A stretch of DNA of 12,623 nt from the UHGV virus genome UHGV-0265509; one strand, given 5' to 3'. Below, piece by piece: positions 1-11,532 of the stretch (position 1 is the first letter of the stretch; every line of letters starts with the position of its first letter). Below the pieces are notes generated by a model. It saw only the letters and a program-made list of their open reading frames with translations, searched no databases and was not told where the DNA came from. A program made the position numbers and the translations under genes. Source of the stretch: a virus.

Positions 1-71
1 GATATCCACTGCGTGAAATCCTTTTTGCTTAGCTAACCGCCACTTAGCGAGTTGTAGCGTCCAGATTCGCA

Positions 72-269
72 TTAGGAACGAGTCTGCGATTCTGCCATCA
101 GTGCACAACTTTTTACAGCCTGTGCATGAAGCTCTGTACCGGGTGTGTAATCCTTTATACAGTCCTGATACAATTCGCGCTTTGTTTCTAGAACACGATT
201 ATCGTACTCAGCACTTGCTAGTGCTCCTGCGATAAGGATAAAAACTAGAATCGGTAACCAAATTTTCAT
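72..269 (-). CDS. small secreted/membrane-anchored protein (65 aa), paralogue of the adjacent upstream ORF
   Basis: ATG at 267-269 preceded by a strong SD (GGAGGTGGGGG); N-terminal hydrophobic signal/anchor (KIWLPILVFILIAGALASA); two Cys separated by 17 residues; ATGA overlap with the upstream gene. Confidence 0.5.
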   Translation of the reverse strand: MKIWLPILVFILIAGALASAEYDNRVLETKRELYQDCIKDYTPGTELHAQAVKSCALMAESQTRS

Positions 270-478
270 CCCCCACCTCCCATTCGTTTAGCGTAATCCG
301 TACACGCCATTACCAATTCAGCGTAGCGTGGATTATCTACCGTAGTACCTGCCATACATTCACGATAAAGAGATTCTTTACGTGATTCGTCGGAAGTCTT
401 AACGTAGAACATCAACATTGTTACAACCAGCGCAGTTGAAACAATTGCCGAGATGATATATCCGTCATTTATTTTCAT
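266..478 (-). CDS. small membrane-anchored protein (70 aa), paralogue of ORF 72..269
   Basis: ATG at 476-478; N-terminal transmembrane-like segment (YIISAIVSTALVVTMLMFYV); then ESRKESLYRECM...ACTDY, resembling ETKRELYQDCI...SCALM of the neighbour, with identical 17-residue Cys-Cys spacing. Confidence 0.5.
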   Translation of the reverse strand: MKINDGYIISAIVSTALVVTMLMFYVKTSDESRKESLYRECMAGTTVDNPRYAELVMACTDYAKRMGGGG

Positions 479-995
479 CTATAAAACACCATGGTTCTGG
501 ATAAAACTCTGTAAGCAAATCAACGTAAAAACTGCGTAAGTTTGTTAGCCTTATAACACGCCCTAACAAATCGTGTTCAGTACGGTGATAAATCACTACA
601 GAAGTTTCTGATACCCGTTTAACATGTATATGGCCCGTACTTTTAATGCTCTGATACAACCGTCCGAAATCAACTGTACCAACCGCATCTGATGAACCTG
701 TAACTGAGTACCGTATACGTGGGGTTTCATTTCCCGCTATCGATAAAAATTCCTCTGTCGCTATTGCAAAAACCTGCCCTGAAAAGGATAGGTGTGGAAT
801 TATTCGTTTACGTAAAGCACTACTTGAAATCTTAGCAAAAACCTGACGTTCCGTTAAGTGCATTAACTCACCTAATCTTTTCAGGTCTTTGTTATATTCC
901 AAAAAAGAAACTACTTTCTCGTCATGCGTAATAGGCGGCCATTCGACCGCCTTTGCCCGACGTTGCTTAAACCGACTCGCAAGTCGCGCTATCAC
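465..995 (-). CDS. hypothetical protein (176 aa)
   Basis: Long ORF in the operon frame pattern; apparent GTG start at 993-995 with GAGGA about 12 nt upstream (first in-frame ATG is far downstream); stop overlaps the next gene by 14 nt. No recognisable motifs. Confidence 0.5.
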   Translation of the reverse strand: MIARLASRFKQRRAKAVEWPPITHDEKVVSFLEYNKDLKRLGELMHLTERQVFAKISSSALRKRIIPHLSFSGQVFAIATEEFLSIAGNETPRIRYSVTGSSDAVGTVDFGRLYQSIKSTGHIHVKRVSETSVVIYHRTEHDLLGRVIRLTNLRSFYVDLLTEFYPEPWCFIDENK

Positions 996-997
996 GT

Positions 998-1690
998 TTA
1001 GTAATCCTCTTCCTGATTGACTACCGATTGGATACGCGTTGCGACTTCGCTAGTGTCCAGGTCAGTTTCGTCGACCTTATCCACAAGTTTCTGTACTTTA
1101 CGTACATGGGATTCGGTAACATCAAAACGACCACGATCGGCTAACAGCAACGTTACCATATCCTTACGCGTAACCAACAGTTCTTCTTCAGGTAGGTGTA
1201 GGGTTTTGTCTAACAGCCCAGAATGCATGAAGTTTTCCAGTAAGCGTTCTTCTCCCTGGTCAAAATCATAACGTTCGTTAGGTGCAGCAACGAAAGCGTA
1301 ACCGAAATAGTTTTCTTCTGTCTCACGTAGCGACTTGATGATTTTATCACCGTGCTGACAGAAATCACTTAACGTGTAGTCGTCAAGCGTTGCCACGATG
1401 GTTTCTGCCTGTACACCATTATCCGTTTCGTAGAGATGCGCAACCCACAGCTTCCAGTTACGTGGTTCGTCAAACAGACCACCGATTAACATATCAGTTG
1501 CTGCCATGCGCATACGCGGTGACGTTGTAAACTGGAAACCACGACCTGCGTACGGGCCGATAGGACGAATAGAGCTACCGACGAAAGTAATGCGGTTTAA
1601 CGCATTTTCAGCGATGGTGTGCGCGGTACGGTTAGCAGCTGCTTTCGGGTTATACTTTTTGTTACGAGGTTTCTTTTGTTTGGTAGCCAT
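998..1690 (-). CDS. hypothetical protein (230 aa) with a basic N-terminus and acidic C-terminus
   Basis: ATG at 1688-1690 overlapping the upstream stop (TAATG); N-terminal KQKKPRNKKYNPK basic tract, acidic C-terminal tail (VVNQEEDY). No recognisable catalytic motif. Confidence 0.55.
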   Translation of the reverse strand: MATKQKKPRNKKYNPKAAANRTAHTIAENALNRITFVGSSIRPIGPYAGRGFQFTTSPRMRMAATDMLIGGLFDEPRNWKLWVAHLYETDNGVQAETIVATLDDYTLSDFCQHGDKIIKSLRETEENYFGYAFVAAPNERYDFDQGEERLLENFMHSGLLDKTLHLPEEELLVTRKDMVTLLLADRGRFDVTESHVRKVQKLVDKVDETDLDTSEVATRIQSVVNQEEDY

Positions 1691-2172
1691 TATTTATTCT
1701 CAACTAATACTGTGTGAAATGCTTTATAAAGAGCTTGACGTGTCTCAACTAACGCAGGGCGATTAATCAAGCACATGTATCCGATTTTCCAAGACCAGTA
1801 AGAAGTGTCGTCGGTATTTAATCCGTAGTCAGGTTCAAGATATACCAAATCCGTGTACGCATCTGGTATATAAAGACGACACAAACTAAGATTCCAGAAA
1901 TTCGGTAAATCCGATTTTGCAAGTTCAGTCATAACCTGCATTGGAATCTGACTTCCAATAACGTCTGTTGCAAAAACGATATGCAGATTTCCAGGTGACT
2001 TAGAATACATACCGTGACCTTCACAACTCCACATTGTCGCCAAATGTGGATGGTCGTTGATTAGCTTACAGGTGTCACGAACTCCTTTTTCAATATAGCC
2101 GTTTTTGATTGCAAGCTGAGCACGCTCTTTAAATGACGCCAGTCTTTCTGCGTCAACAGAAAATTGAATCAT
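1690..2172 (-). CDS. hypothetical protein (160 aa)
   Basis: ATG at 2170-2172 in ATGA overlap with the upstream gene; uninterrupted ORF; function not recognisable. Confidence 0.55.
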   Translation of the reverse strand: MIQFSVDAERLASFKERAQLAIKNGYIEKGVRDTCKLINDHPHLATMWSCEGHGMYSKSPGNLHIVFATDVIGSQIPMQVMTELAKSDLPNFWNLSLCRLYIPDAYTDLVYLEPDYGLNTDDTSYWSWKIGYMCLINRPALVETRQALYKAFHTVLVENK

Positions 2173-2633
2173 GACGGATTCTTCCCTAAAATTATCTCGC
2201 GCATTTCCAGGTAGGTGTCAAACGGCACCACGGTGTCTTTGTAACGCAACGTTACGTAGGTTACGAAGTGTTGTGGTGCCAGGAAAGCACGCTTTGGCGA
2301 CCCGTCGTGGTTGTAATACTGTTTCGGACGATATTTGTTGAAAATGTCTTCACGTGGGAACAATGATTTCTGAATAACCACTTCCCAACGGTGTGGCGTT
2401 TCCAAGAGTCCAATACGGATCAGCATAGCATCTACCCACCGGCTCATGTTTTCGGTTAATACGAAACTGACGTGGTGGTGCTGTACCTCTGCTAACGCGA
2501 CTTCGGGTTCTTTATCCAGTCGCATTAATACCGCAAACAGTGGGCGATAATCAGAATCGTACAGGTCACGGAAAGCGGTTTTCTCACGCTGCTTAAACAA
2601 CTCAACAATTTCTTTAGATTCAAAACATTTCAT
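2169..2633 (-). CDS. hypothetical protein (154 aa)
   Basis: ATG at 2631-2633 preceded by AGGAGAAAAGAAA; ATGA overlap with the downstream gene; function not recognisable. Confidence 0.55.
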   Translation of the reverse strand: MKCFESKEIVELFKQREKTAFRDLYDSDYRPLFAVLMRLDKEPEVALAEVQHHHVSFVLTENMSRWVDAMLIRIGLLETPHRWEVVIQKSLFPREDIFNKYRPKQYYNHDGSPKRAFLAPQHFVTYVTLRYKDTVVPFDTYLEMREIILGKNPS

Positions 2634-2678
2634 TTTCTTTTCTCCTAATCATTAAAATAGTCGCAGTTGTAAAAAAGA

Positions 2679-3200
2679 CTACGGGTTAAAAGGTAACGGC
2701 TTGCAATCCCGCTTCTTCAACTCTTCTACTAACTCAGATAATGTACACCAACGTTTAAATTTGTTGTTGGCTTTAAAGTGACTGAGAATCTCCTCTACAC
2801 GCTCAATCGACCACTTCCCTTTACCCACGTTATCTAAATCTTTACGTAGCGAGAGCGTCTCAATGGTAAACGCTAACTCCGATGTGTCCGAGTGGTCGTA
2901 CAGTAGTCTTACTGGTGCAGATTGGTGAAGTGTAACACGCCACCCTGATTCCTTAGCCCAGTAAACATCTTTAATTCGACCACCGACGTCAATTACGGAA
3001 CTGATATAGCTCCACTCCTTTTCCAGTTTGTTCTCTTCAGCAGTTAATGCTTCTTCTAATCGTAAAGAATTAGGGGACGGAATCCACCAACCGTACTTAC
3101 CGTAATAATCATCTATTACAGTAATACCTTCGTAATACAGATATTGAGTTTTTGTATTAACGAATATTTCATCGCCAATTAAGACAGCGTTTATCTTCAT
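2679..3200 (-). CDS. hypothetical protein (173 aa)
   Basis: ATG at 3198-3200 in ATGA overlap with the upstream gene stop; uninterrupted ORF; function not recognisable. Confidence 0.55.
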   Translation of the reverse strand: MKINAVLIGDEIFVNTKTQYLYYEGITVIDDYYGKYGWWIPSPNSLRLEEALTAEENKLEKEWSYISSVIDVGGRIKDVYWAKESGWRVTLHQSAPVRLLYDHSDTSELAFTIETLSLRKDLDNVGKGKWSIERVEEILSHFKANNKFKRWCTLSELVEELKKRDCKPLPFNP

Positions 3201-3685
3201 CGTAAGTGCTTCCTGTAGAATAAGTCATACGCCTCCGATGTGGCGGTATCAATAGATCCTACTAAGGGAATAATATTCTTTTCGCTTATACCTGATGCCC
3301 AGGCCGCACGAGCAAAAGCTTGACCCGAACCCGTTGCCCAAACCGTGTTTTTATTCAGTACACGAGATTCAAATTTACCCTCTAGCAGTCCGAGCCAGTG
3401 TGTTTCCTCAGCTGTGTAAATGATAATCTGATCGTAAAACTGTTCTTTTTCGATAAGATCTTTAAATAACCCTTCAATCTTGGCTCGCTTTTCTTCAATC
3501 AAATATTTTTCTACTGCGACCATTATCGTATTTTTCCAGAGATCCGAGTCCAATACGCGTTCCCCAGTATAAACAACGAATTTGTTTTTGTACTTGTGTA
3601 ATTTAGGTGCCGCTTTAACTGTACCGCCGTAGTCAACCAACCGATCGGCTAAAATGTAATCGTTTGTTACTAAAACTGTTGTCAT
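3197..3685 (-). CDS. hypothetical protein (162 aa); possible HslV/proteasome-beta-like Ntn hydrolase
   Basis: Start taken at the internal ATG (3683-3685) preceded by GAGGTG SD and lying just downstream of a terminator, not the GTG at 3799 of the ORF track. N-terminus MTTVLVTNDY resembles HslV MTTIVSV (Thr nucleophile after Met removal); later TGSGQAFARAAWA resembles the HslV IGSGGPYAQAAARAL segment. Similarity judged by eye only. Confidence 0.4.
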   Translation of the reverse strand: MTTVLVTNDYILADRLVDYGGTVKAAPKLHKYKNKFVVYTGERVLDSDLWKNTIMVAVEKYLIEEKRAKIEGLFKDLIEKEQFYDQIIIYTAEETHWLGLLEGKFESRVLNKNTVWATGSGQAFARAAWASGISEKNIIPLVGSIDTATSEAYDLFYRKHLR

Positions 3686-3696
3686 CACACACCTCG

Positions 3697-3736
3697 AAGA
3701 AAAATAAAAGTACCCTCTCTCCGTTAGGAGAGAGGG
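3697..3736 (-). terminator. rho-independent terminator
   Basis: Perfect 10-bp stem CCCTCTCTCC / GGAGAGAGGG (3713-3722 and 3727-3736) with a 4-nt loop, followed on the transcribed (minus) strand by the U-rich tract UACUUUUAUUUUUCUU; lies directly after the stop of gene 3744..4013. Confidence 0.8.
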
Positions 3737-3743
3737 GCACTGC

Positions 3744-4013
3744 TTAAATCTTACGACTGCTACCGTAGCAGCCACGACCTGCTGTCGTTTTCGCAGCACT
3801 GACAGGTGCTAACGCAGCCATCGTACCATCGGTCTTAACAATGTGTAAGTTACTTACGCGAGCCAGACCTTTAAAGGTAATCTTCACACCCTTGCGTAAA
3901 CTCTTCACATCGTAACCGTCGAGTTTGAGTGTTTTGATTTTCTCAGGCTTACCTTCTTCGTAATAAGAAAGAACATTACCCGCACGTTTCTCAACAATGT
4001 AAATCTTAGCCAT
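3744..4013 (-). CDS. hypothetical small Lys-rich protein (89 aa), own promoter and terminator
   Basis: ATG at 4011-4013 with SD GGAG 9 nt upstream; sigma70-like promoter upstream and strong terminator immediately downstream; function not recognisable. Confidence 0.55.
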   Translation of the reverse strand: MAKIYIVEKRAGNVLSYYEEGKPEKIKTLKLDGYDVKSLRKGVKITFKGLARVSNLHIVKTDGTMAALAPVSAAKTTAGRGCYGSSRKI

Positions 4014-4690: not shown

Positions 4691-4743
4691 TTAAGCTGTT
4701 CCTCAATTAATTTTGTTTACGTGTGCATAATTAGACGCGAAAG

Positions 4744-4785
4744 CGTAAAAATAAATTCTCCCTCTCTCCAAACGGAGAGAGGGAA
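4744..4785 (-). terminator. rho-independent terminator (same stem sequence as the 3713-3736 hairpin)
   Basis: 12-bp stem containing the identical CCCTCTCTCC / GGAGAGAGGG core (4760-4769 and 4774-4783), loop AAAC, followed on the minus strand by AAUUUAUUUUUACG; directly after the stop of gene 4789..5295. Confidence 0.8.
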
Positions 4786-4788
4786 GGT

Positions 4789-5570: not shown

Positions 5571-6344
5571 TTAAAAGATAAAATGGCCAGTTAATGCTTC
5601 TACTTCAACACCAGACATTGCTGGAGGTGCTGAGTATGGAAAAGTAAGACGCACGGTTGCACCCTTTAAATACGCAATACGGTAGTATGTGGTCAAGAGC
5701 GCAATCCCGTAAGTACAGTCGTTATAGAAGAAACCTTCGGTTGCAAACGTCTTTTCGTTGATTTTCGAATAGACTAAGATACCTTCAACTTTACCGTCTT
5801 TACGACAGCACAGCCCTTCAGCAGCCCCAATAGCTAACAATCCCAGGCAGTATGTATCTAAACTGACATTAACCACCTTAGGGATCGTAAACGTTTCTTC
5901 TAACGTTAGAGATTCAATATCAACTACATCAGGTAAATCGGTGCGAACTTCGGGTTCTTCAGTAAACGTCAGGTCATAGTCGATAGACGTCGGCTGCATA
6001 CCCAAATACACCATTAACTGGTCGCGACGTTTTAGGTCGTTGGCAGGGTATGTGACATCAAACACCTCCACTTTTAACAAACGTTTGAGTTGTGCGAAAT
6101 TAATTTTCTTCTTCGCAAACACAACGATTGCCGACATGTAGAAAAACTTACCGTCGGCACGACCGGAGAAGATTCCTTGTAGCTGATTCGTGTTCGAAAG
6201 AATGATAAAGGTCGGATCTTCAGACTCGCGAATGACGTCCTTTTCCAGTAACCCTTTCCGTACACGGGTTAGTGAAACCATTTTCCCGTCGACACCAATT
6301 GCTAAATGGTCATTACGATAATCGTGAATATCCACTATGCGCAT
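5571..6344 (-). CDS. hypothetical protein (257 aa), translationally coupled to Dam
   Basis: ATG at 6342-6344 shares one base with the dam stop codon (TAATG at 6342-6346); uninterrupted 257-codon ORF; no recognisable motif. Confidence 0.6.
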   Translation of the reverse strand: MRIVDIHDYRNDHLAIGVDGKMVSLTRVRKGLLEKDVIRESEDPTFIILSNTNQLQGIFSGRADGKFFYMSAIVVFAKKKINFAQLKRLLKVEVFDVTYPANDLKRRDQLMVYLGMQPTSIDYDLTFTEEPEVRTDLPDVVDIESLTLEETFTIPKVVNVSLDTYCLGLLAIGAAEGLCCRKDGKVEGILVYSKINEKTFATEGFFYNDCTYGIALLTTYYRIAYLKGATVRLTFPYSAPPAMSGVEVEALTGHFIF

Positions 6345-7159
6345 TAGAGCACTCCCAGTAATTCAGTCACCGTTTTCCGAGCAGCGCCAGACGCACCCAT
6401 ATAGCGACCGACCTCAATACTGCGCCACTCAAAACCGTAATAAATTTCTCGGGTGAGCAGGGTGTCTGCATTTGACAACACGACACTGTTGCCACGTTCC
6501 ACCTGCTGCTGTAGTAACTTGGCTAATTCTCGATGATCCGTTTGTGAGAATTCTTTACGGTGGTATTGCGCATGTTTCGCGGTATCCGATAACGGAATAT
6601 ACGGAGGATCAGCATAAATCACAGCATCCTCAGGCGTCCGCGCTAATACGGAACGAAAGTCTTCACAAACAATTTCCAGATAATCAACTTCTGCGCAACG
6701 TTTAGCCCAATCCCGAATTTCTTCTAACGGATAATAAACCCCATTCGGGTAACGTCCAAACGGAACATTGAACCCACCGCTACCGTTATAACGACACATC
6801 CCGTTATAACCGTGACGCATTAAGTATAAAAACATCGCTGCCCGTTCAACTTCTGACATTGTTTTACCGCTATTAAACAGCTCACGACGCTCCATATACT
6901 TTACAGTGGTATTACCGTCTAAGAACAACGGCTGCGACGCAGCGATCAGTTCTTCAGGCTGTTCACGCGCAACGCAAAGTAAGCGTATCAAATCAGGGTT
7001 AGAATCCGATAAAATATACCGGCTGTAATTCGTATTTAGGAAAACAGACCCTGCACCCACAAACGGTTCTACAAAGGTTGTACGTTTAGGTAAGACCTTT
7101 TGTAATTCCCCTAAAACACGTGTTTTCCCACCCATCCACTTAATAATTGGTTTCCGCAT
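6344..7159 (-). CDS. dam: DNA adenine methyltransferase, Dam family (GATC N6-adenine MTase)
   Basis: 271 aa, near-colinear with E. coli Dam by eye: N-terminal KWMGGK (Dam KWAGGK), AdoMet-binding FVEPFVGAGSVFLNT, LYLMRHGYNGMCRYN...FNVPFGRY, catalytic DPPY, C-terminal RKTVTELL. ATG at 7157-7159. Confidence 0.9.
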   Translation of the reverse strand: MRKPIIKWMGGKTRVLGELQKVLPKRTTFVEPFVGAGSVFLNTNYSRYILSDSNPDLIRLLCVAREQPEELIAASQPLFLDGNTTVKYMERRELFNSGKTMSEVERAAMFLYLMRHGYNGMCRYNGSGGFNVPFGRYPNGVYYPLEEIRDWAKRCAEVDYLEIVCEDFRSVLARTPEDAVIYADPPYIPLSDTAKHAQYHRKEFSQTDHRELAKLLQQQVERGNSVVLSNADTLLTREIYYGFEWRSIEVGRYMGASGAARKTVTELLGVL

Positions 7160-8138
7160 TATATCCGCCTTGTAACGATGACACTTCGTCGCCTAACACC
7201 AACTCGACACGATTTTTCCGTCGCTCCCAACTGACGACGTCATCGTCGCGCACTAAAACAAATTCGTAATCGTAGGGCCGAAATTTAAATAATTCGACGA
7301 CCAGGTGTCTAAATGCAGGGTTGTTATTGAAACACCCTATCTCTAATGGTGCCGCTGTTGTCGATGCAATCTGCAGAGCACGGTATAACAAAGTCCGTCC
7401 GATACCACGCCCCCGATGTGTTTCACTTACCGCAATGGCTTTTAATTCACACTCGTTAAGATTACGTAATTTAACTTGCACCACGCCCACAACATCGTTG
7501 CCGTCCATCCAAACGTAGGTGTGGTGGTTGACGTGACGTACTAATTCCACCAACGTTTCGACTTGTGGCATGATTTGTCGTGTGCGGCCCACAGGGTCAG
7601 CGTTGATGTTTTCAACGACGCTCGTACCCAAAAGCAACATAAGCTGTTCGCGTTGTGTGGCAGTTAGCTCTTTATAAAAATCGCCAGAAATATTCTTCAC
7701 GTTCGTTGGTAGTGCGACATCCAGTAACTTACGTGTGCCTAAACGGTACGTAGAGTGGGCGTGTCTAAATCCCAGGTCATTAAGCTCAGAGATTTCTTCT
7801 ACACCACTGGCAATTCGGTTAAGGTACGTAAAACCGGTATAGTCGAGTACCAGTAGTAGGTTCAGTTTGTTCAAACAACCCGGTACAATCTCATGCATAT
7901 ACAAGCAGTGTAACGTTGGGTCGCCGTAAATGTGTTTTGTGATGATAAACCCTTGAATTGTTTTTCCTTTTTGTAAAGAGAACGTATTCAGTTCACTATT
8001 GCACAACGCCTCACGAATCACCGCACCGTTAGGGCCCGATAAACAAGCTTGGAGTTGAGGGTTGCGAATGTCTCTGCGTGCTAAACGTCCTACTGTTAAA
8101 TCCGTGGCGGTACGTTCTATAGTCTTCCTAAAAGCCAT
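7140..8138 (-). CDS. two-domain protein (332 aa): unknown N-terminal domain fused to a C-terminal GNAT acetyltransferase domain
   Basis: ATG at 8136-8138 with SD AAGGAG; C-terminal part carries the GNAT acetyl-CoA motif (LKAIAVSETHRGRGIGRTLLYRALQIA, i.e. R-x-x-G-x-G); the first ~200 residues have no recognisable motif; 20-nt overlap with the dam start. Confidence 0.65.
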   Translation of the reverse strand: MAFRKTIERTATDLTVGRLARRDIRNPQLQACLSGPNGAVIREALCNSELNTFSLQKGKTIQGFIITKHIYGDPTLHCLYMHEIVPGCLNKLNLLLVLDYTGFTYLNRIASGVEEISELNDLGFRHAHSTYRLGTRKLLDVALPTNVKNISGDFYKELTATQREQLMLLLGTSVVENINADPVGRTRQIMPQVETLVELVRHVNHHTYVWMDGNDVVGVVQVKLRNLNECELKAIAVSETHRGRGIGRTLLYRALQIASTTAAPLEIGCFNNNPAFRHLVVELFKFRPYDYEFVLVRDDDVVSWERRKNRVELVLGDEVSSLQGGYNAETNY

Positions 8139-8185
8139 TTTAATTACTCCTTAAAAGGTCGTCTCAAAACAATACACTATAGCTG

Positions 8186-8220
8186 TAAAAACAAAAAAGA
8201 ATGGGGAACCGAAGTTCCCC
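8186..8220 (-). terminator. rho-independent terminator
   Basis: 7-bp GC-rich stem GGGGAAC / GTTCCCC (8203-8209 and 8214-8220); the RNA loop is UUCG, followed by AUUCUUUUUUGUUUUU on the minus strand. Confidence 0.8.
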
Positions 8221-8319
8221 TATATTAGTTAGCCGAACAGTCCCTCATCAAAATTCAAAGTGGGGGCTTCATGTAGTATTTCCATTGCCATGATTTTTAC
8301 TCCCGAAACGGTTCTTCAA

Positions 8320-8728: not shown

Positions 8729-8745
8729 ACTAAGGTAACATCTAT

Positions 8746-8789
8746 CTGAGAAAAAATAAAATATAGGTACCACCGTTGGGTGGTACCTA
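8746..8789 (-). terminator. rho-independent terminator
   Basis: 11-bp stem (8764-8774 and 8779-8789, core GGTACCACC / GGTGGTACC), loop of 4 nt, followed on the minus strand by UAUAUUUUAUUUUUUCUC; directly after the stop of the kinase gene. Confidence 0.8.
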
Positions 8790-8794
8790 AGCGG

Positions 8795-9418
8795 TTAGTT
8801 TGCTAAAATGTGCGTAACAATCTCTGCGGCTTTCAAACGGTAATCGTCATTCTGCGTTACCGGTAATAACGTGTGAAGACAACCGCCTTCTGTTAAGATG
8901 TGGTGTGCAAAACGATAATGGTCACGTAAACCATCCCAACATTGGTTGTCTTTTAGATACTTAACAGTAAGTACCTCATCATCCCAATTCTTACCTTGTT
9001 CTTCTACACGTTTCTTAAATCGTGTTAACGCTGTTGGGTAATCAACATCTGTCCAAACATAAAGGTCAGGAGTGTGGAAATGACGAGTTAGCTTACGTTG
9101 GAAAACCACGTCCTTACCATCTGTCCCCTGATAAACAATCGTTGAAGGACAGAAGCGATCGAAAATAACGACATCGTATTCATCAACGACATGGTCCAAC
9201 GTGTGAAGGAAATCATCACACATTGCTTCAGCAATTTTTGTTTTCGAGGCAGACTGTACAACCAAACTGCGTGCACGAATGCCCGCCTCAGTTTCAGACG
9301 TCGGATGGTTCCGAATACAAACTTTTAATCCTGCGGATTCCAACATCGCTTTTACCATTTTACACAACGTTGATTTCCCAGAAAAATCAGGACCATCAAT
9401 AGACACTGTCTTAAGCAT
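8795..9418 (-). CDS. tmk: thymidylate kinase (dTMP kinase) family nucleotide kinase
   Basis: 207 aa; P-loop SIDGPDFSGKST (E. coli Tmk IEGLEGAGKTT), RNHPTSETEAGIRARSLVV (Tmk TREPGGTQLAEKLRSLVL), FDRF...STIVYQG (Tmk GDRH...STQAYQG), PDLYVWTDVD (Tmk PDLTLYLDV). Monocistronic, between two terminators. Substrate not determinable from sequence. Confidence 0.75.
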   Translation of the reverse strand: MLKTVSIDGPDFSGKSTLCKMVKAMLESAGLKVCIRNHPTSETEAGIRARSLVVQSASKTKIAEAMCDDFLHTLDHVVDEYDVVIFDRFCPSTIVYQGTDGKDVVFQRKLTRHFHTPDLYVWTDVDYPTALTRFKKRVEEQGKNWDDEVLTVKYLKDNQCWDGLRDHYRFAHHILTEGGCLHTLLPVTQNDDYRLKAAEIVTHILAN

Positions 9419-9453
9419 TATTGTTTTACCTTTTTACGCACGTTAAGTGAAAC

Positions 9454-9468
9454 CTCTCACAATGAGAG
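9454..9468. promoter_or_regulatory. inverted repeat CTCTCA-N3-TGAGAG in the kinase upstream region; candidate operator
   Basis: 6-bp arms at 9454-9459 and 9463-9468, about 35-50 nt upstream of the kinase ATG; contains the TCTCAC hexamer also present in the palindromes at 4037-4050 and 8726-8731. Confidence 0.2.
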
Positions 9469-9486
9469 TAACAGTTGTAATAATTT

Positions 9487-9525
9487 ACAATAAAAAAGAA
9501 ACCCGCCCCTACCGTTAAGTAGGGG
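9487..9525 (-). terminator. rho-independent terminator
   Basis: 7-bp stem CCCCTAC / GTAGGGG (9506-9512 and 9519-9525), 6-nt loop, followed on the minus strand by CGGGUUUCUUUUUUAUUG; directly after the stop of gene 9533..10138. Confidence 0.7.
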
Positions 9526-9532
9526 TAAGGTT

Positions 9533-11064: not shown

Positions 11065-11532
11065 TTAGATTTCCTTTATCATTTCCCTGCATTCGGTACG
11101 GAATCCCATTTTCTCATACAGGGAGATAGCTTTAACGTTGTTGTCTAACACATCCAGACTCATCCAACCACAGCCTTTGGACTTTCCGTATTCACGGACT
11201 TTGTCCATAAGCGCACGACCTACCCCTTGAGAACGTGCTTCGGGAATCACGTAGTAGTTCCCAATATAAACAAATGTGTCCTTTGAGCAAGAGCCCATTG
11301 AAAACGTCATGAAGCCCAAAAGTTGTTCGTCGCCATCCACCGCACACGCACAGAGATAATCTTGAGGCCAAATCTCTTCTAAGTGTTCAATTGGGTTGAA
11401 CGTGTCGCGTCCGGTTAACTGACTAATACGCACTTTCTCTTCTGCGAACAGCATGTTGTGCAGTTTGAGTACCTGGTCGCCGTATAACTTTCCGTATTTA
11501 CTGTCGGGTTTGAGAATAATAGTGATACGCAT
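11065..11532 (-). CDS. GNAT family N-acetyltransferase (155 aa)
   Basis: ATG at 11530-11532 in TAATG overlap with the upstream gene, SD GAGG; canonical GNAT motif A (YVIPEARSQGVGRALMDKVREYGKSKG) and motif B-like LYEKMGF. Confidence 0.8.
   Translation of the reverse strand: MRITIILKPDSKYGKLYGDQVLKLHNMLFAEEKVRISQLTGRDTFNPIEHLEEIWPQDYLCACAVDGDEQLLGFMTFSMGSCSKDTFVYIGNYYVIPEARSQGVGRALMDKVREYGKSKGCGWMSLDVLDNNVKAISLYEKMGFRTECREMIKEI

What the first reader, a model, noticed from the sequence alone, without database searches (positions are those of the whole stretch)
72..478. Tandem paralogous small membrane-anchored proteins with a conserved Cys pair
Two adjacent, overlapping ORFs (70 and 65 aa) each have an N-terminal hydrophobic segment followed by a related soluble region (ESRKESLYRECM... 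versus ETKRELYQDCI...). Both carry two cysteines with identical 17-residue spacing, suggesting a conserved disulfide in periplasm-exposed domains. Tandem duplication of small envelope proteins on mobile elements often marks superinfection-exclusion, lysis-regulation or envelope-defence functions.
Basis: seen in the sequence. Interest (0 to 1): 0.45.

Follow-up and report, generated by a model that had tools for sequence, protein, structure and literature searches.

The report
Paired exported two-cysteine jumbo-phage proteins
Two small overlapping genes of a giant enterobacterial phage encode related proteins, one membrane-anchored and one probably secreted, that most likely sit outside the inner membrane, belong to an uncharacterised family found in related giant phages, and may keep rival phages out of an infected cell, though that function is untested.

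Summary
Window 266-478 (-) encodes ORF A (70 aa) and 72-269 (-) encodes ORF B (65 aa). They overlap by ATGA. Each has an N-terminal hydrophobic segment and two cysteines 17 residues apart. Both are real genes: dozens of variants exist, the cysteines are invariant, and dN/dS is 0.21 for A and 0.05 for B.

The A-B similarity is weak alone (BLASTP E 8e-4, shuffle p about 2e-4 to 6e-4). It is secured by a wider family at the same syntenic position in SPN3US-like jumbo phages: SPN3US gp116/gp118, Asesino gp134, EarlPhillipIV gp126/127 and CR5_125/126 (phrog_28359, phrog_10627).

The same helix-Cys-loop-Cys-helix module is attached to three export devices: a transmembrane anchor (A, gp116), a cleavable signal peptide (B, gp118), or a lipoprotein signal with Asp+2 in tandem (Derbicusvirus). 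This indicates a periplasmic site of action, mostly tethered to the inner membrane. B is probably secreted, not anchored.

No Pfam, NCBIfam, PDB or fold match exists. Spanin and holin membership fail. The EexN entry-exclusion hit comes from the signal peptide only.

The most likely function is superinfection exclusion or envelope protection (about 0.35). An RI-like lysis regulator or another periplasmic host-takeover role remains open.

The parts
266..478 (-). ORF A, 70 aa. Short N-terminus (MKINDG), one TM helix (about residues 7-26), then a 44-aa C-terminal domain. Predicted type II (N-in, C-out) inner-membrane protein.
   Evidence: ORF list. KD19 maximum 2.3. 33 homologs at 74-97% identity. 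dN/dS 0.21. AlphaFold2 pLDDT 82, helix 3-42, loop, helix 52-66. Net positive charge lies on the N-terminal side, and the C-terminal flank is net neutral (sequence).
401..460 (-). TM anchor of A (residues 7-26, GYIISAIVSTALVVTMLMFY). No small residues at -3/-1 after it, so it is probably not cleaved.
   Evidence: Hydropathy. Conserved in all homologs.
281..382 (-). Cys-pair module of A (residues 33-66). Motif LYREC(41)-x17-C(59)TDYA. Cys codons at 356-358 and 302-304.
   Evidence: Invariant columns L37 Y38 C41 V56 C59 A63 across A and B orthologs.
72..269 (-). ORF B, 65 aa. Sec signal peptide plus a 45-aa mature domain. Predicted soluble periplasmic protein.
   Evidence: ORF list. 52 homologs at 77-97% identity. 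dN/dS 0.05. AlphaFold2 pLDDT 74, helix 4-38, loop, helix 46-64.
210..269 (-). Signal peptide of B (residues 1-20): n-region MK, h-region IWLPILVFILIAGAL, c-region ASA, predicted cut ASA|EY. Variants are ANA|EY, ASA|EL, ASA|DY.
   Evidence: Sequence inspection against the -3/-1 rule. No SignalP was available.
75..209 (-). Mature B with Cys-pair module LYQDC(37)-x17-C(55)ALMA. Cys codons at 159-161 and 105-107. The loop CIKDYTPGTELHAQAVKSC is nearly invariant in the clade.
270..281 (-). Shine-Dalgarno for B (GGGAGGTGGGGG) directly before its ATG. It lies inside the codons for A's C-terminal MGGGG tail. The stop of A and the start of B share ATGA.
   Evidence: junction sequences.
465..995 (-). 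176-aa ORF of unknown function immediately upstream. It overlaps A's start by 14 nt and lies in the same operon. It is not related to Asesino gp131, which occupies the corresponding position.
998..1690 (-). 230-aa protein (phrog_6965). It is the conserved synteny anchor used to find the family in other jumbo phages.
1..74 (-). Start of the next gene (DUF488-N3a protein, MRIWTLQLAKW...). It overlaps B's stop (TAATG) and runs off the window. In full contigs it is followed by a hairpin plus T-run terminator.
2634..2678 (-). Nearest upstream intergenic region, with the AT-rich motif TCTTTTTTACAACTG. This is the candidate promoter of the operon 154aa-160aa-230aa-176aa-A-B-DUF488. A similar TTACAACTG lies upstream of the thymidylate kinase gene.
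   Evidence: Motif only, not enriched overall. Timing class not determined.

Best explanation
A and B are two paralogous members of an uncharacterised family of small exported proteins of SPN3US-like jumbo phages. Each consists of an export or anchor device followed by a roughly 40-residue helix-loop-helix hairpin. The hairpin carries one Cys near the end of helix 1 (motif hydrophobic-aromatic-x-x-C) and one Cys in helix 2 (motif hydrophobic-x-x-C-x-x-x-A). The two Cys are probably joined by a DsbA-made disulfide.

A is inserted N-in/C-out and holds its hairpin at the periplasmic face of the inner membrane. B is translated by coupling from the same mRNA, exported by Sec, cut after ASA, and released into the periplasm.

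The most likely job is envelope-level exclusion or protection in the infected (or carrier-state) cell. The hairpins would bind a component that an incoming phage needs between the outer membrane and the cytoplasm, such as a tail-tip lysin, an ejection or channel protein, or a host inner-membrane or periplasmic factor. This would block secondary infection. It would be the phage counterpart of T4 Spackle/Imm and of the plasmid entry-exclusion lipoproteins TrbK/EexN.

Shown here: the genes, selection, paralogy, family, export signals, anchor swapping and operon structure.

Inferred: periplasmic location, the disulfide, the partner and the function.

The confidence of 0.38 is for the function. The architecture and location part I would put at about 0.85.
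For: 1. Real, constrained genes.

2. Family membership.
- Syntenic homologs lie just downstream of the phrog_6965 gene in SPN3US (gp116, gp118), Asesino (gp134), EarlPhillipIV (gp126, gp127) and CR5 (CR5_125, CR5_126).
- Both Cys columns are invariant in the family alignments.
- The pairwise shuffle network runs through P0090.
- The combined profile scores gp116 at p 5e-7.
- A's only PHROG hit at E <= 10 is phrog_10627, over the Cys domain. One B-type homolog (P0084) hits only phrog_28359; B itself does not.

3. Location. One domain sits behind three different export devices: a TM anchor, an SPase-I signal, and lipoboxes LVGC|D / LSAC|D. Asp at +2 is the established inner-membrane retention signal (Yamaguchi 1988, as cited in PMC8923210).

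4. Hairpin fold with one Cys on each helix.

5. Accessory and variable, as expected of exclusion or host-interaction genes. Within 5 kb either side of the phrog_6965 gene there are two copies in the window clade, SPN3US and Derbicusvirus, one in Asesino and SPAsTU, and none in Wellington or Machina, where small 2-TM proteins occupy the locus.

6. Analogues with proven exclusion function share the architecture.
- T4 Spackle has a 22-aa signal peptide, is periplasmic and helical, and has one disulfide, Cys29-Cys81 (PMC7650644).
- RP4 TrbK and pKM101/R46 EexN are small inner-membrane lipoproteins with Asp+2. EexN also has a Cys pair, C-x11-C.

7. Context.
- The operon ends at a terminator before the tail-fibre genes, and there is no lysis gene within 10 kb on either side.
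- The phage persists as a circular 222-kb 'plasmid' in E. coli and Enterobacter isolates. Exclusion of further infection would be useful in that lifestyle.
Against: No functional data exist for any member.

There is no detectable homology to any characterised exclusion protein.
- The profile search of PDB sequences found only chance hits, E >= 0.012.
- The NCBIfam EexN hits (19-23 bits, cutoff 33) disappear when the lipoprotein signal is removed.
- The EexN mature domain is not significantly similar to the family.

Signal-peptide and topology calls rest on rules of thumb and hydropathy, not on a dedicated predictor or experiment.

The disulfide is inferred.

The timing of expression is unknown.

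A periplasmic hairpin could equally bind a holin domain or a host enzyme.
Confidence: 0.38

Rival explanations
1. Lysis-timing regulators. The periplasmic hairpins bind the periplasmic part of the phage holin, as the T4 antiholin RI binds holin T, and so delay or tune lysis (lysis inhibition). A would be the tethered form and B the free form.
For: The size and topology resemble T4 RI, a small protein with an N-terminal membrane segment and a periplasmic domain (established knowledge, summarised in PMC12894885). That paper reports slower lysis at high multiplicity for phiKZ and suggests a lysis-inhibition system in jumbo phages. Small 2-TM proteins with a class II holin-like topology sit at the same locus in Asesino, Wellington, Machina and SPAsTU.
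Against: No endolysin, holin or spanin gene lies within 10 kb on either side in full contigs or in the window. [quoted passage not shown] A's TM is strongly hydrophobic (KD 2.3), unlike weakly hydrophobic SAR domains. There is no sequence match to any solved structure.
Confidence: 0.2
2. Another periplasmic host-takeover function. The hairpins would inhibit or hijack a host periplasmic or inner-membrane protein, for example a peptidoglycan enzyme, a protease, an envelope-stress sensor or a defence-system sensor. This would keep the envelope intact or silence a response during the long jumbo-phage cycle.
For: The same topology evidence applies as for the main explanation. B's loop is nearly invariant and its dN/dS is 0.05. 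This fits a conserved host target shared by Salmonella, E. coli, Shigella and Enterobacter hosts. The operon partners are non-structural proteins of unknown function, and the operon has an AT-rich upstream motif shared with a nucleotide-metabolism gene.
Against: No homolog of known function exists. There is no hit in PADLOC or NCBIfam beyond signal peptides. Nothing points to a specific target.
Confidence: 0.25
3. A two-component spanin (A as i-spanin, B as o-spanin), or a holin.
For: The genes are adjacent and overlapping, the first has an N-terminal TM segment, and both proteins contain Cys. This superficially resembles Rz/Rz1. One family member has a weak PHROG hit to Rz-like spanin (E 0.055, signal-peptide region).
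Against: B has no lipobox. The lipoprotein orthologs carry Asp+2, the inner-membrane retention signal, whereas o-spanins must reach the outer membrane. A's periplasmic part is 44 residues with no long coiled coil. In Derbicusvirus both members are lipoproteins and neither has a TMD. No endolysin is nearby. The conserved part is the soluble domain while the TMD is dispensable across the family, which is the opposite of a holin.
Confidence: 0.03
4. The resemblance between A and B is chance or convergence between two unrelated small exported proteins.
For: hhalign probability is only 33%. There are only 8 identities in 26 residues, and much of the score comes from the two Cys.
Against: Shuffle p is 2e-4 to 6e-4. 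The Cys spacing is identical. The flanking motifs (LY-x-x-C, V-x-x-C-x-x-x-A) are shared and invariant in both ortholog sets. P0090, gp116 and phrog_10627 provide bridging homologs. The same paired arrangement is found at the syntenic locus in other genera.
Confidence: 0.05

Closest known systems
SPN3US gp116 (phrog_28359), and SPN3US gp118 / Asesino gp134 / Stratton gp138 / EarlPhillipIV gp126 and gp127 / CR5_125 and CR5_126 / Phobos gp128 (phrog_10627). All are annotated 'hypothetical protein'.
   Same: They occupy the same syntenic position, downstream of the phrog_6965 gene. They have the same size class and an N-terminal export device, followed by helix-(hydrophobic-aromatic-x-x-C)-loop-(hydrophobic-x-x-C-x-x-x-A)-helix. 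There are usually two copies per genome.
   Different: Sequence identity to A and B is only about 20-30%. PHROG profile scores are below significance: A against phrog_10627 gives E 0.18, and B-like P0084 against phrog_28359 gives E 0.024. The loop has 21-23 residues in phrog_10627 against 17 in A, B and gp116. Anchors differ (lipoprotein, signal peptide or TM). The gp118-type proteins have a 30-50 residue C-terminal extension.
T4 Spackle (gp61.3), a periplasmic superinfection-exclusion protein that inhibits the gp5 tail lysozyme
   Same: It is a small phage protein with a cleaved Sec signal peptide, is periplasmic and all-helical, and has a single intramolecular disulfide (PMC7650644). This is the best functional analogue for B.
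   Different: No sequence or fold similarity was detected. The Cys spacing is 51 residues against 17, and the fold is a multi-helix domain against a two-helix hairpin. Lysozyme binding was not tested here.
Plasmid entry-exclusion lipoproteins EexN (IncN, NF033894) and TrbK (IncP, TIGR04359)
   Same: They are very small proteins (69-75 aa). They are tethered to the periplasmic face of the inner membrane by a lipobox plus Asp+2, exactly like the Derbicusvirus members of the family. EexN of R46 also has a Cys pair. Their function is to block DNA entry from a related element.
   Different: A and B themselves have no lipobox. The NCBIfam scores of the lipoprotein members (19-23 bits) are below the cutoff of 33 and vanish without the signal peptide. 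The mature domains are not significantly similar. EexN has C-x11-C.
T4 RI antiholin
   Same: It is a small phage protein with an N-terminal membrane segment and a periplasmic effector domain, encoded away from the endolysin (established knowledge, summarised).
   Different: No sequence match was found in the PDB-sequence profile search. A's TM is not SAR-like. No holin partner has been identified.

Membership tests
gp116/gp118-like exported Cys-pair proteins of SPN3US-like jumbo phages (phrog_28359 plus phrog_10627) | N-terminal export or anchor signal followed by a short soluble domain | tested here: met
   A has a TM anchor and B has a signal peptide. Other members have a TM, a signal peptide or a lipobox.
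gp116/gp118-like exported Cys-pair proteins of SPN3US-like jumbo phages (phrog_28359 plus phrog_10627) | Two invariant Cys 17-23 residues apart, in the motifs [LIVF]-[YF]-x-x-C and [VLI]-x-x-C-x-x-x-A | tested here: met
   Alignments A3, A4 and A5. C41 and C59 of A (C37 and C55 of B) are invariant in all rows.
gp116/gp118-like exported Cys-pair proteins of SPN3US-like jumbo phages (phrog_28359 plus phrog_10627) | Position in the operon downstream of the phrog_6965 gene | tested here: met
gp116/gp118-like exported Cys-pair proteins of SPN3US-like jumbo phages (phrog_28359 plus phrog_10627) | Significant profile score to the PHROG models | tested here: inconclusive
   A's only PHROG hit is phrog_10627 (E 0.18). 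The only hit of P0084, a B homolog, is phrog_28359 (E 0.024); B itself hits only phrog_13529 (E 0.13). Support comes from my own profiles and shuffles and from P0090 (phrog_10627 E 7.7e-5).
Two-component spanins (Rz/Rz1 type) | The o-spanin is an outer-membrane lipoprotein, with a lipobox and no inner-membrane retention signal | tested here: not met
   B has ALASA|EY and no lipobox Cys. The lipoprotein orthologs have Asp+2.
Two-component spanins (Rz/Rz1 type) | The i-spanin has a TMD plus a long, mostly coiled-coil periplasmic domain | tested here: not met
   A's periplasmic part is 44 aa, folded back as a hairpin. The features are as listed in PMC12894885.
Two-component spanins (Rz/Rz1 type) | Clustered with the holin and endolysin genes (usual, not obligatory) | tested here: not met
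   No lysis-type Pfam or PHROG hit lies within 10 kb on either side.
Holins | At least one TMD that is essential and conserved in the family | tested here: not met
   A has one TMD. After processing, B, gp118-type and lipoprotein members have none. The conserved part is the soluble domain.
Holins | Timed lethal membrane permeabilisation | not testable with these tools
   This needs an induction experiment.
EexN family entry-exclusion lipoprotein (NF033894) | NCBIfam score at or above the curated cutoff (33 bits) | tested here: not met
   A and B give no hit. The lipoprotein relatives score 15.7-23.2 bits.
EexN family entry-exclusion lipoprotein (NF033894) | Similarity in the mature domain, not only in the lipoprotein signal | tested here: not met
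   There is no hit once the signal is removed, while the EexN mature domain itself scores 51.7 bits. The family HMM against EexN scores 6.1 bits, p about 0.005. Pairwise p is >= 0.03.
EexN family entry-exclusion lipoprotein (NF033894) | Lipobox with Asp+2 (inner-membrane lipoprotein) | tested here: not met
   The feature is absent from A and B. It is present in EarlPhillipIV gp126/127, CR5_125/126, Phobos gp128 and P0090.
T4 Spackle (gp61.3) | Cleaved signal peptide and periplasmic location | tested here: inconclusive
   B has a canonical signal by the -3/-1 rule, but no predictor or experiment was available.
T4 Spackle (gp61.3) | Sequence or fold similarity to Spackle | tested here: not met
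T4 Spackle (gp61.3) | Binds and inhibits a tail-associated lysozyme | not testable with these tools
   This needs biochemistry or multimer modelling.

The most novel reading that the evidence does not exclude
The pair is a jumbo-phage entry-exclusion system. In it, an inner-membrane-tethered hairpin and a free (or second tethered) hairpin act together at the periplasmic face of the inner membrane. They would intercept the genome-delivery apparatus of an incoming related jumbo phage. This would be a phage-borne counterpart of plasmid TrbK/EexN exclusion. It would have arisen independently and be kept as a two-gene module while its membrane anchor was swapped three ways. It may also help the phage hold its host in the carrier ('plasmid-like') state seen in clinical isolates.
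Probability: 0.25. Interest if true: 0.6.

Novelty: new variant of a known kind. Interest (0 to 1): 0.38.

Why it matters
Almost nothing is known about how SPN3US/phiKZ-type jumbo phages deal with the host envelope, apart from the recently defined phiKZ lysis cassette. This family gives a concrete, cheap-to-test pair of candidates of 65-110 aa each. The natural variants (TM-anchored, lipid-anchored, free) already amount to a topology experiment.

If the proteins exclude secondary infection, that matters for phage-cocktail design against Salmonella and E. coli. It would also help explain how a 222-kb lytic-type phage persists in isolates that are deposited as carrying a 'plasmid'.

If the function proves unremarkable, the result is still a clean annotation: a new exported-protein family linking two PHROGs with two unassigned groups, one of which (A) is missed by PGAP.

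Tried and rejected
- Direct database identification failed. A and B have no PHROG hit at E <= 0.01, and no Pfam, NCBIfam or PADLOC hit. tblastn against phages found nothing, and megablast of the window against phages found nothing.
- Exhaustive profile search. Apart from A, B and P0090, the hits were repetitive or low-complexity proteins (P0086-P0089, P0091), which I rejected on inspection.
- EexN lead. I followed it by fetching R46 eexN. I rejected it as homology after removing the signal peptide, after an HMM-with-shuffle test and after pairwise shuffles. It is kept only as an architectural analogue. My first accession guess for R46 failed, and tblastn of CR5_125 against plasmids found nothing.
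- IMG/VR scan with P0090 gave one locus (L016). Its match is a cytoplasmic MazG-like protein that shares 'LFLSACDQ' by chance, so I rejected it.
- P0090's own contig (L008) is 2.5 kb of small phage-like genes and gave no functional context.
- Sigma-70 promoter and intrinsic terminator scans of window 1-2000 showed nothing near the pair. The TTTTTAC motif is not enriched window-wide, so expression timing stays open.
- The 176-aa upstream ORF is not homologous to Asesino gp131 despite its similar size and position.
- Literature searches for SPN3US gp116/gp118 or an SPN3US lysis cassette found nothing on these genes. There is only a remark that gp118 follows the protease paralog gp117.
Full report
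**What is in the sequence**

All genes of the 12.6-kb window lie on the minus strand. The finding covers two ORFs.
- ORF A: 266-478, 70 aa.
- ORF B: 72-269, 65 aa.

A's stop and B's start share ATGA. B's strong Shine-Dalgarno (GGGAGGTGGGGG, 270-281) is written inside the codons for A's C-terminal MGGGG. A's start overlaps the end of the upstream 176-aa ORF by 14 nt. B's stop overlaps the start (TAATG) of a DUF488-N3a gene that runs off the left end of the window.

In full-length contigs that gene is followed by a GC hairpin plus T-run. The nearest upstream intergenic gap (window 2634-2678) carries an AT-rich TTTTTTACAACTG motif. The pair therefore sits inside one tightly coupled operon: 154aa-160aa-230aa-176aa-A-B-DUF488. 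This operon is separate from the tail-fibre genes that follow.

**Checking the observation**

Both proteins have an N-terminal hydrophobic stretch. The KD19 maximum is 2.3 for A and 2.1 for B. Both have exactly two Cys with 17 residues between them: C41/C59 in A and C37/C55 in B.

Tests of A-B similarity:
- BLASTP: 8/26 identities, E 8e-4.
- Shuffling the soluble parts: p 6e-4.
- Shuffling the core domains: p 2e-4.
- hhalign of the ortholog alignments: E 4.5e-4, probability 33%.

On its own this is suggestive rather than proven.

Both are real genes. I found 33 distinct A variants and 52 distinct B variants (74-97% identity), mostly on 218-230 kb contigs, with both Cys and the flanking motif invariant. 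Against the copy in an E. coli 'plasmid' record, dN/dS is 0.21 for A (14 synonymous, 12 non-synonymous changes) and 0.05 for B (22 and 6).

**What the element is**

PHROG hits and tblastn show that the window comes from a jumbo phage related to Salmonella phage SPN3US (Seoulvirus) and Erwinia phage Asesino. The 230-aa protein (phrog_6965) is 62-64% identical to its SPN3US homolog. No close relative is in the INPHARED phage set.

**The wider family**

I looked downstream of the phrog_6965 homolog in other genera and found the same module repeatedly.

| Phage | Protein | Export device | Cys spacing |
|---|---|---|---|
| SPN3US | gp116 | TM segment | x17 |
| SPN3US | gp118 | signal peptide AHA\|A | x21 |
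| Asesino | gp134 | signal peptide | x21 |
| EarlPhillipIV / CR5 | gp126 / CR5_125 | lipobox LVGC\|D (CR5: LAGC\|D) | x23 |
| EarlPhillipIV / CR5 | gp127 / CR5_126 | lipobox LSAC\|D (CR5: LTAC\|D) | x21 |

The two lipoprotein genes in EarlPhillipIV and CR5 are tandem and overlapping. All members share [LIVF]-[YF]-x-x-C ... [VLI]-x-x-C-x-x-x-A.

Statistical links between the groups:
- A combined A+B profile scores gp116 at 16 bits, p 5e-7 for one comparison.
- The exhaustive search of 1.84 billion representatives found one further member, P0090, at E 8.9e-5. It has lipobox LSAC|D and x18 spacing.
- P0090 is a hub in pairwise shuffle tests. It scores 83 against A, 68 against Asesino gp134, 54 against EarlPhillipIV gp126, 46 against gp116 and 44 against B, each at p <= 2e-4. 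It scores 37 against gp118 (p 0.001) and 34 against EarlPhillipIV gp127 (p 0.007).
- PHROGs itself places the signal-peptide and both lipoprotein forms in phrog_10627, and gp116 in phrog_28359.
- A's only PHROG hit at E <= 10 is phrog_10627, over the Cys domain.
- B itself hits only phrog_13529 (E 0.13). The only hit of its homolog P0084 is phrog_28359.

A family HMM finds no other copy in the window. Within 5 kb either side of the phrog_6965 gene (10 kb in the window-clade contig), it finds two copies in SPN3US, EarlPhillipIV, CR5 and the window clade. It finds one in Asesino and SPAsTU, and none in Wellington or Machina, where small 2-TM proteins occupy the locus.

So A and B are paralogs within an old accessory family that usually comes as a pair.

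**Topology**

The strongest inference comes from the anchor swap. One conserved soluble module is found behind a signal-anchor TM, behind a signal-peptidase-I signal, and behind lipoboxes with Asp at +2. Asp+2 is the established inner-membrane retention signal (cited in PMC8923210). The common denominator is the periplasm, mostly tethered to the inner membrane.

- A has net positive charge N-terminal to its TM and a neutral C-terminal flank, so it is predicted N-in/C-out.
- B has a textbook n-h-c signal with ASA|EY, so it is predicted to be released as a 45-aa periplasmic protein.

AlphaFold2 gives a helix-loop-helix for both, with one Cys near the end of helix 1 and the other in helix 2 (A pLDDT 82, B pLDDT 74). 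A disulfide is therefore plausible, but I could not measure it.

**Function**

Nothing characterised is homologous.
- Pfam, NCBIfam and PADLOC give nothing beyond signal-peptide noise.
- The PDB sequence-profile search gives only chance hits.

The one intriguing hit was NCBIfam EexN (the IncN entry-exclusion lipoprotein), matched by the lipoprotein members at 19-23 bits. I tested it and rejected it as homology.
- It is below the cutoff of 33 bits.
- It vanishes when the signal peptide is removed, while genuine EexN still scores 51.7 bits.
- The mature domains are not significantly similar.

It remains a good architectural analogue. R46 EexN is a 75-aa protein with lipobox LVAC|D and a Cys pair. 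RP4 TrbK is a 69-aa inner-membrane lipoprotein with Asp+2. T4 Spackle is the phage analogue: it has a cleaved 22-aa signal, is periplasmic and helical, has one disulfide, and blocks the tail lysozyme of superinfecting phage (PMC7650644).

Spanin membership fails on tested features.
- B has no lipobox.
- The lipoprotein orthologs carry Asp+2.
- A's periplasmic part is only 44 aa.
- In Derbicusvirus neither partner has a TMD.

Holin membership fails because the TMD is dispensable across the family. No lysis gene lies within 10 kb.

I therefore rank the functional readings as follows:
- Envelope-level exclusion or protection: about 0.35-0.4.
- Some other periplasmic host-takeover role: about 0.25.
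- An RI-like lysis regulator: about 0.2.

All of these are inferences. The experiments that would separate them are listed under next steps.

**Comparison and novelty**

The kind of thing, small exported phage proteins acting in the envelope, is well known. This sequence family has no characterised member. Two of its four subgroups (A and B) are outside any PHROG or Pfam family. The three-way anchor exchange with retention of a gene pair is a neat natural experiment.

I rate it a new variant of a known kind, of moderate interest.

**In passing**

The phage itself is deposited as a circular 222-kb 'plasmid' in complete E. coli and Enterobacter genomes. It also appears on contigs of similar size in many Salmonella, E. 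coli and Shigella assemblies.

Noticed in passing
whole window; L015 (NZ_CP173450.1 52255-61254); NZ_CP134650.1: The window's SPN3US-like jumbo phage is deposited as a circular 'plasmid' in two complete genomes. One is E. coli strain 98232 (221,873 bp, human urine, 89.8% nt identity). The other is Enterobacter ludwigii (222,441 bp, gull cloaca, 90.3%). Its proteins also sit on 218-230 kb contigs in many Salmonella, E. coli and Shigella isolate assemblies and in metagenomes. No close relative is in the INPHARED phage set. This suggests a carrier state or pseudolysogeny, or systematic mislabelling as a plasmid.
   Followed up: partly
L015 3266-3478 (corresponds to window 266-478): In the RefSeq E. 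coli 'plasmid' record, PGAP annotates ORF B but leaves ORF A unannotated. There is a gap between the B gene and the 176-aa gene.
   Followed up: partly
window 1690-2172 and 2169-2633 (-): This is a second tandem, 4-nt-overlapping pair of possible paralogs in the same operon. The 160-aa and 154-aa proteins both hit phrog_7413 (E 5e-26 and 1.3e-3). Their function is unknown.
   Followed up: no
L002 5748-5924 (Asesino gp133); L009 6100-6303 (Wellington gp145); L010 9093-9293 and 9399-9575 (Machina gp132/133); L011 7902-8105 (SPAsTU): Relatives carry small 58-67 aa proteins with two TM segments at the same locus, instead of or next to the Cys-pair proteins. The locus appears to be a hot spot for small membrane proteins. 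The topology is class II holin-like or Imm-like, but this was not tested.
   Followed up: partly
window 3197-3799 (-); L009-L013: A 200-aa protein has a weak HslV-family peptidase hit (phrog_1040, E 2.6e-7). Related phages (Wellington, Machina, SPAsTU, EarlPhillipIV, CR5) encode an HslU-ATPase-domain protein a few genes downstream. No such gene is called in the corresponding 20 kb of the window clade (L003).
   Followed up: no
window 2634-2678, 4691-4788, 8139-8319, 8731-8794, 9419-9532 (-); L003 18395-18513: Most intergenic gaps have a GC hairpin plus T-run followed directly by an AT-rich element ending in TTAC (TTTTTAC, ATATTAC or TTACAACTG). This looks like terminator-promoter units of the phage's own transcription system. 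TTTTTAC is not enriched window-wide: 7 matches found against 5.25 expected.
   Followed up: partly
window 7140-8138 and 11065-11532 (-); 6344-7159 (-); 8795-9418 (-): The window also encodes two GNAT-type acetyltransferases, a Dam-like (MethyltransfD12) DNA methyltransferase and a thymidylate kinase.
   Followed up: no
B homologs P0079-P0081: Some B variants carry a third Cys two residues after the predicted signal-peptide cut (ASA|EC...). P0081 has a fourth. Their significance is unknown.
   Followed up: no
L001 5002-5487 (SPN3US gp117) and neighbours: In SPN3US the two Cys-pair genes gp116 and gp118 flank gp117. The literature describes gp117 as a truncated paralog of the prohead protease gp245 (PMC5694885). 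The window clade lacks gp117, gp118 and gp119 equivalents at this locus. It has the unrelated 176-aa ORF plus A and B instead.
   Followed up: partly
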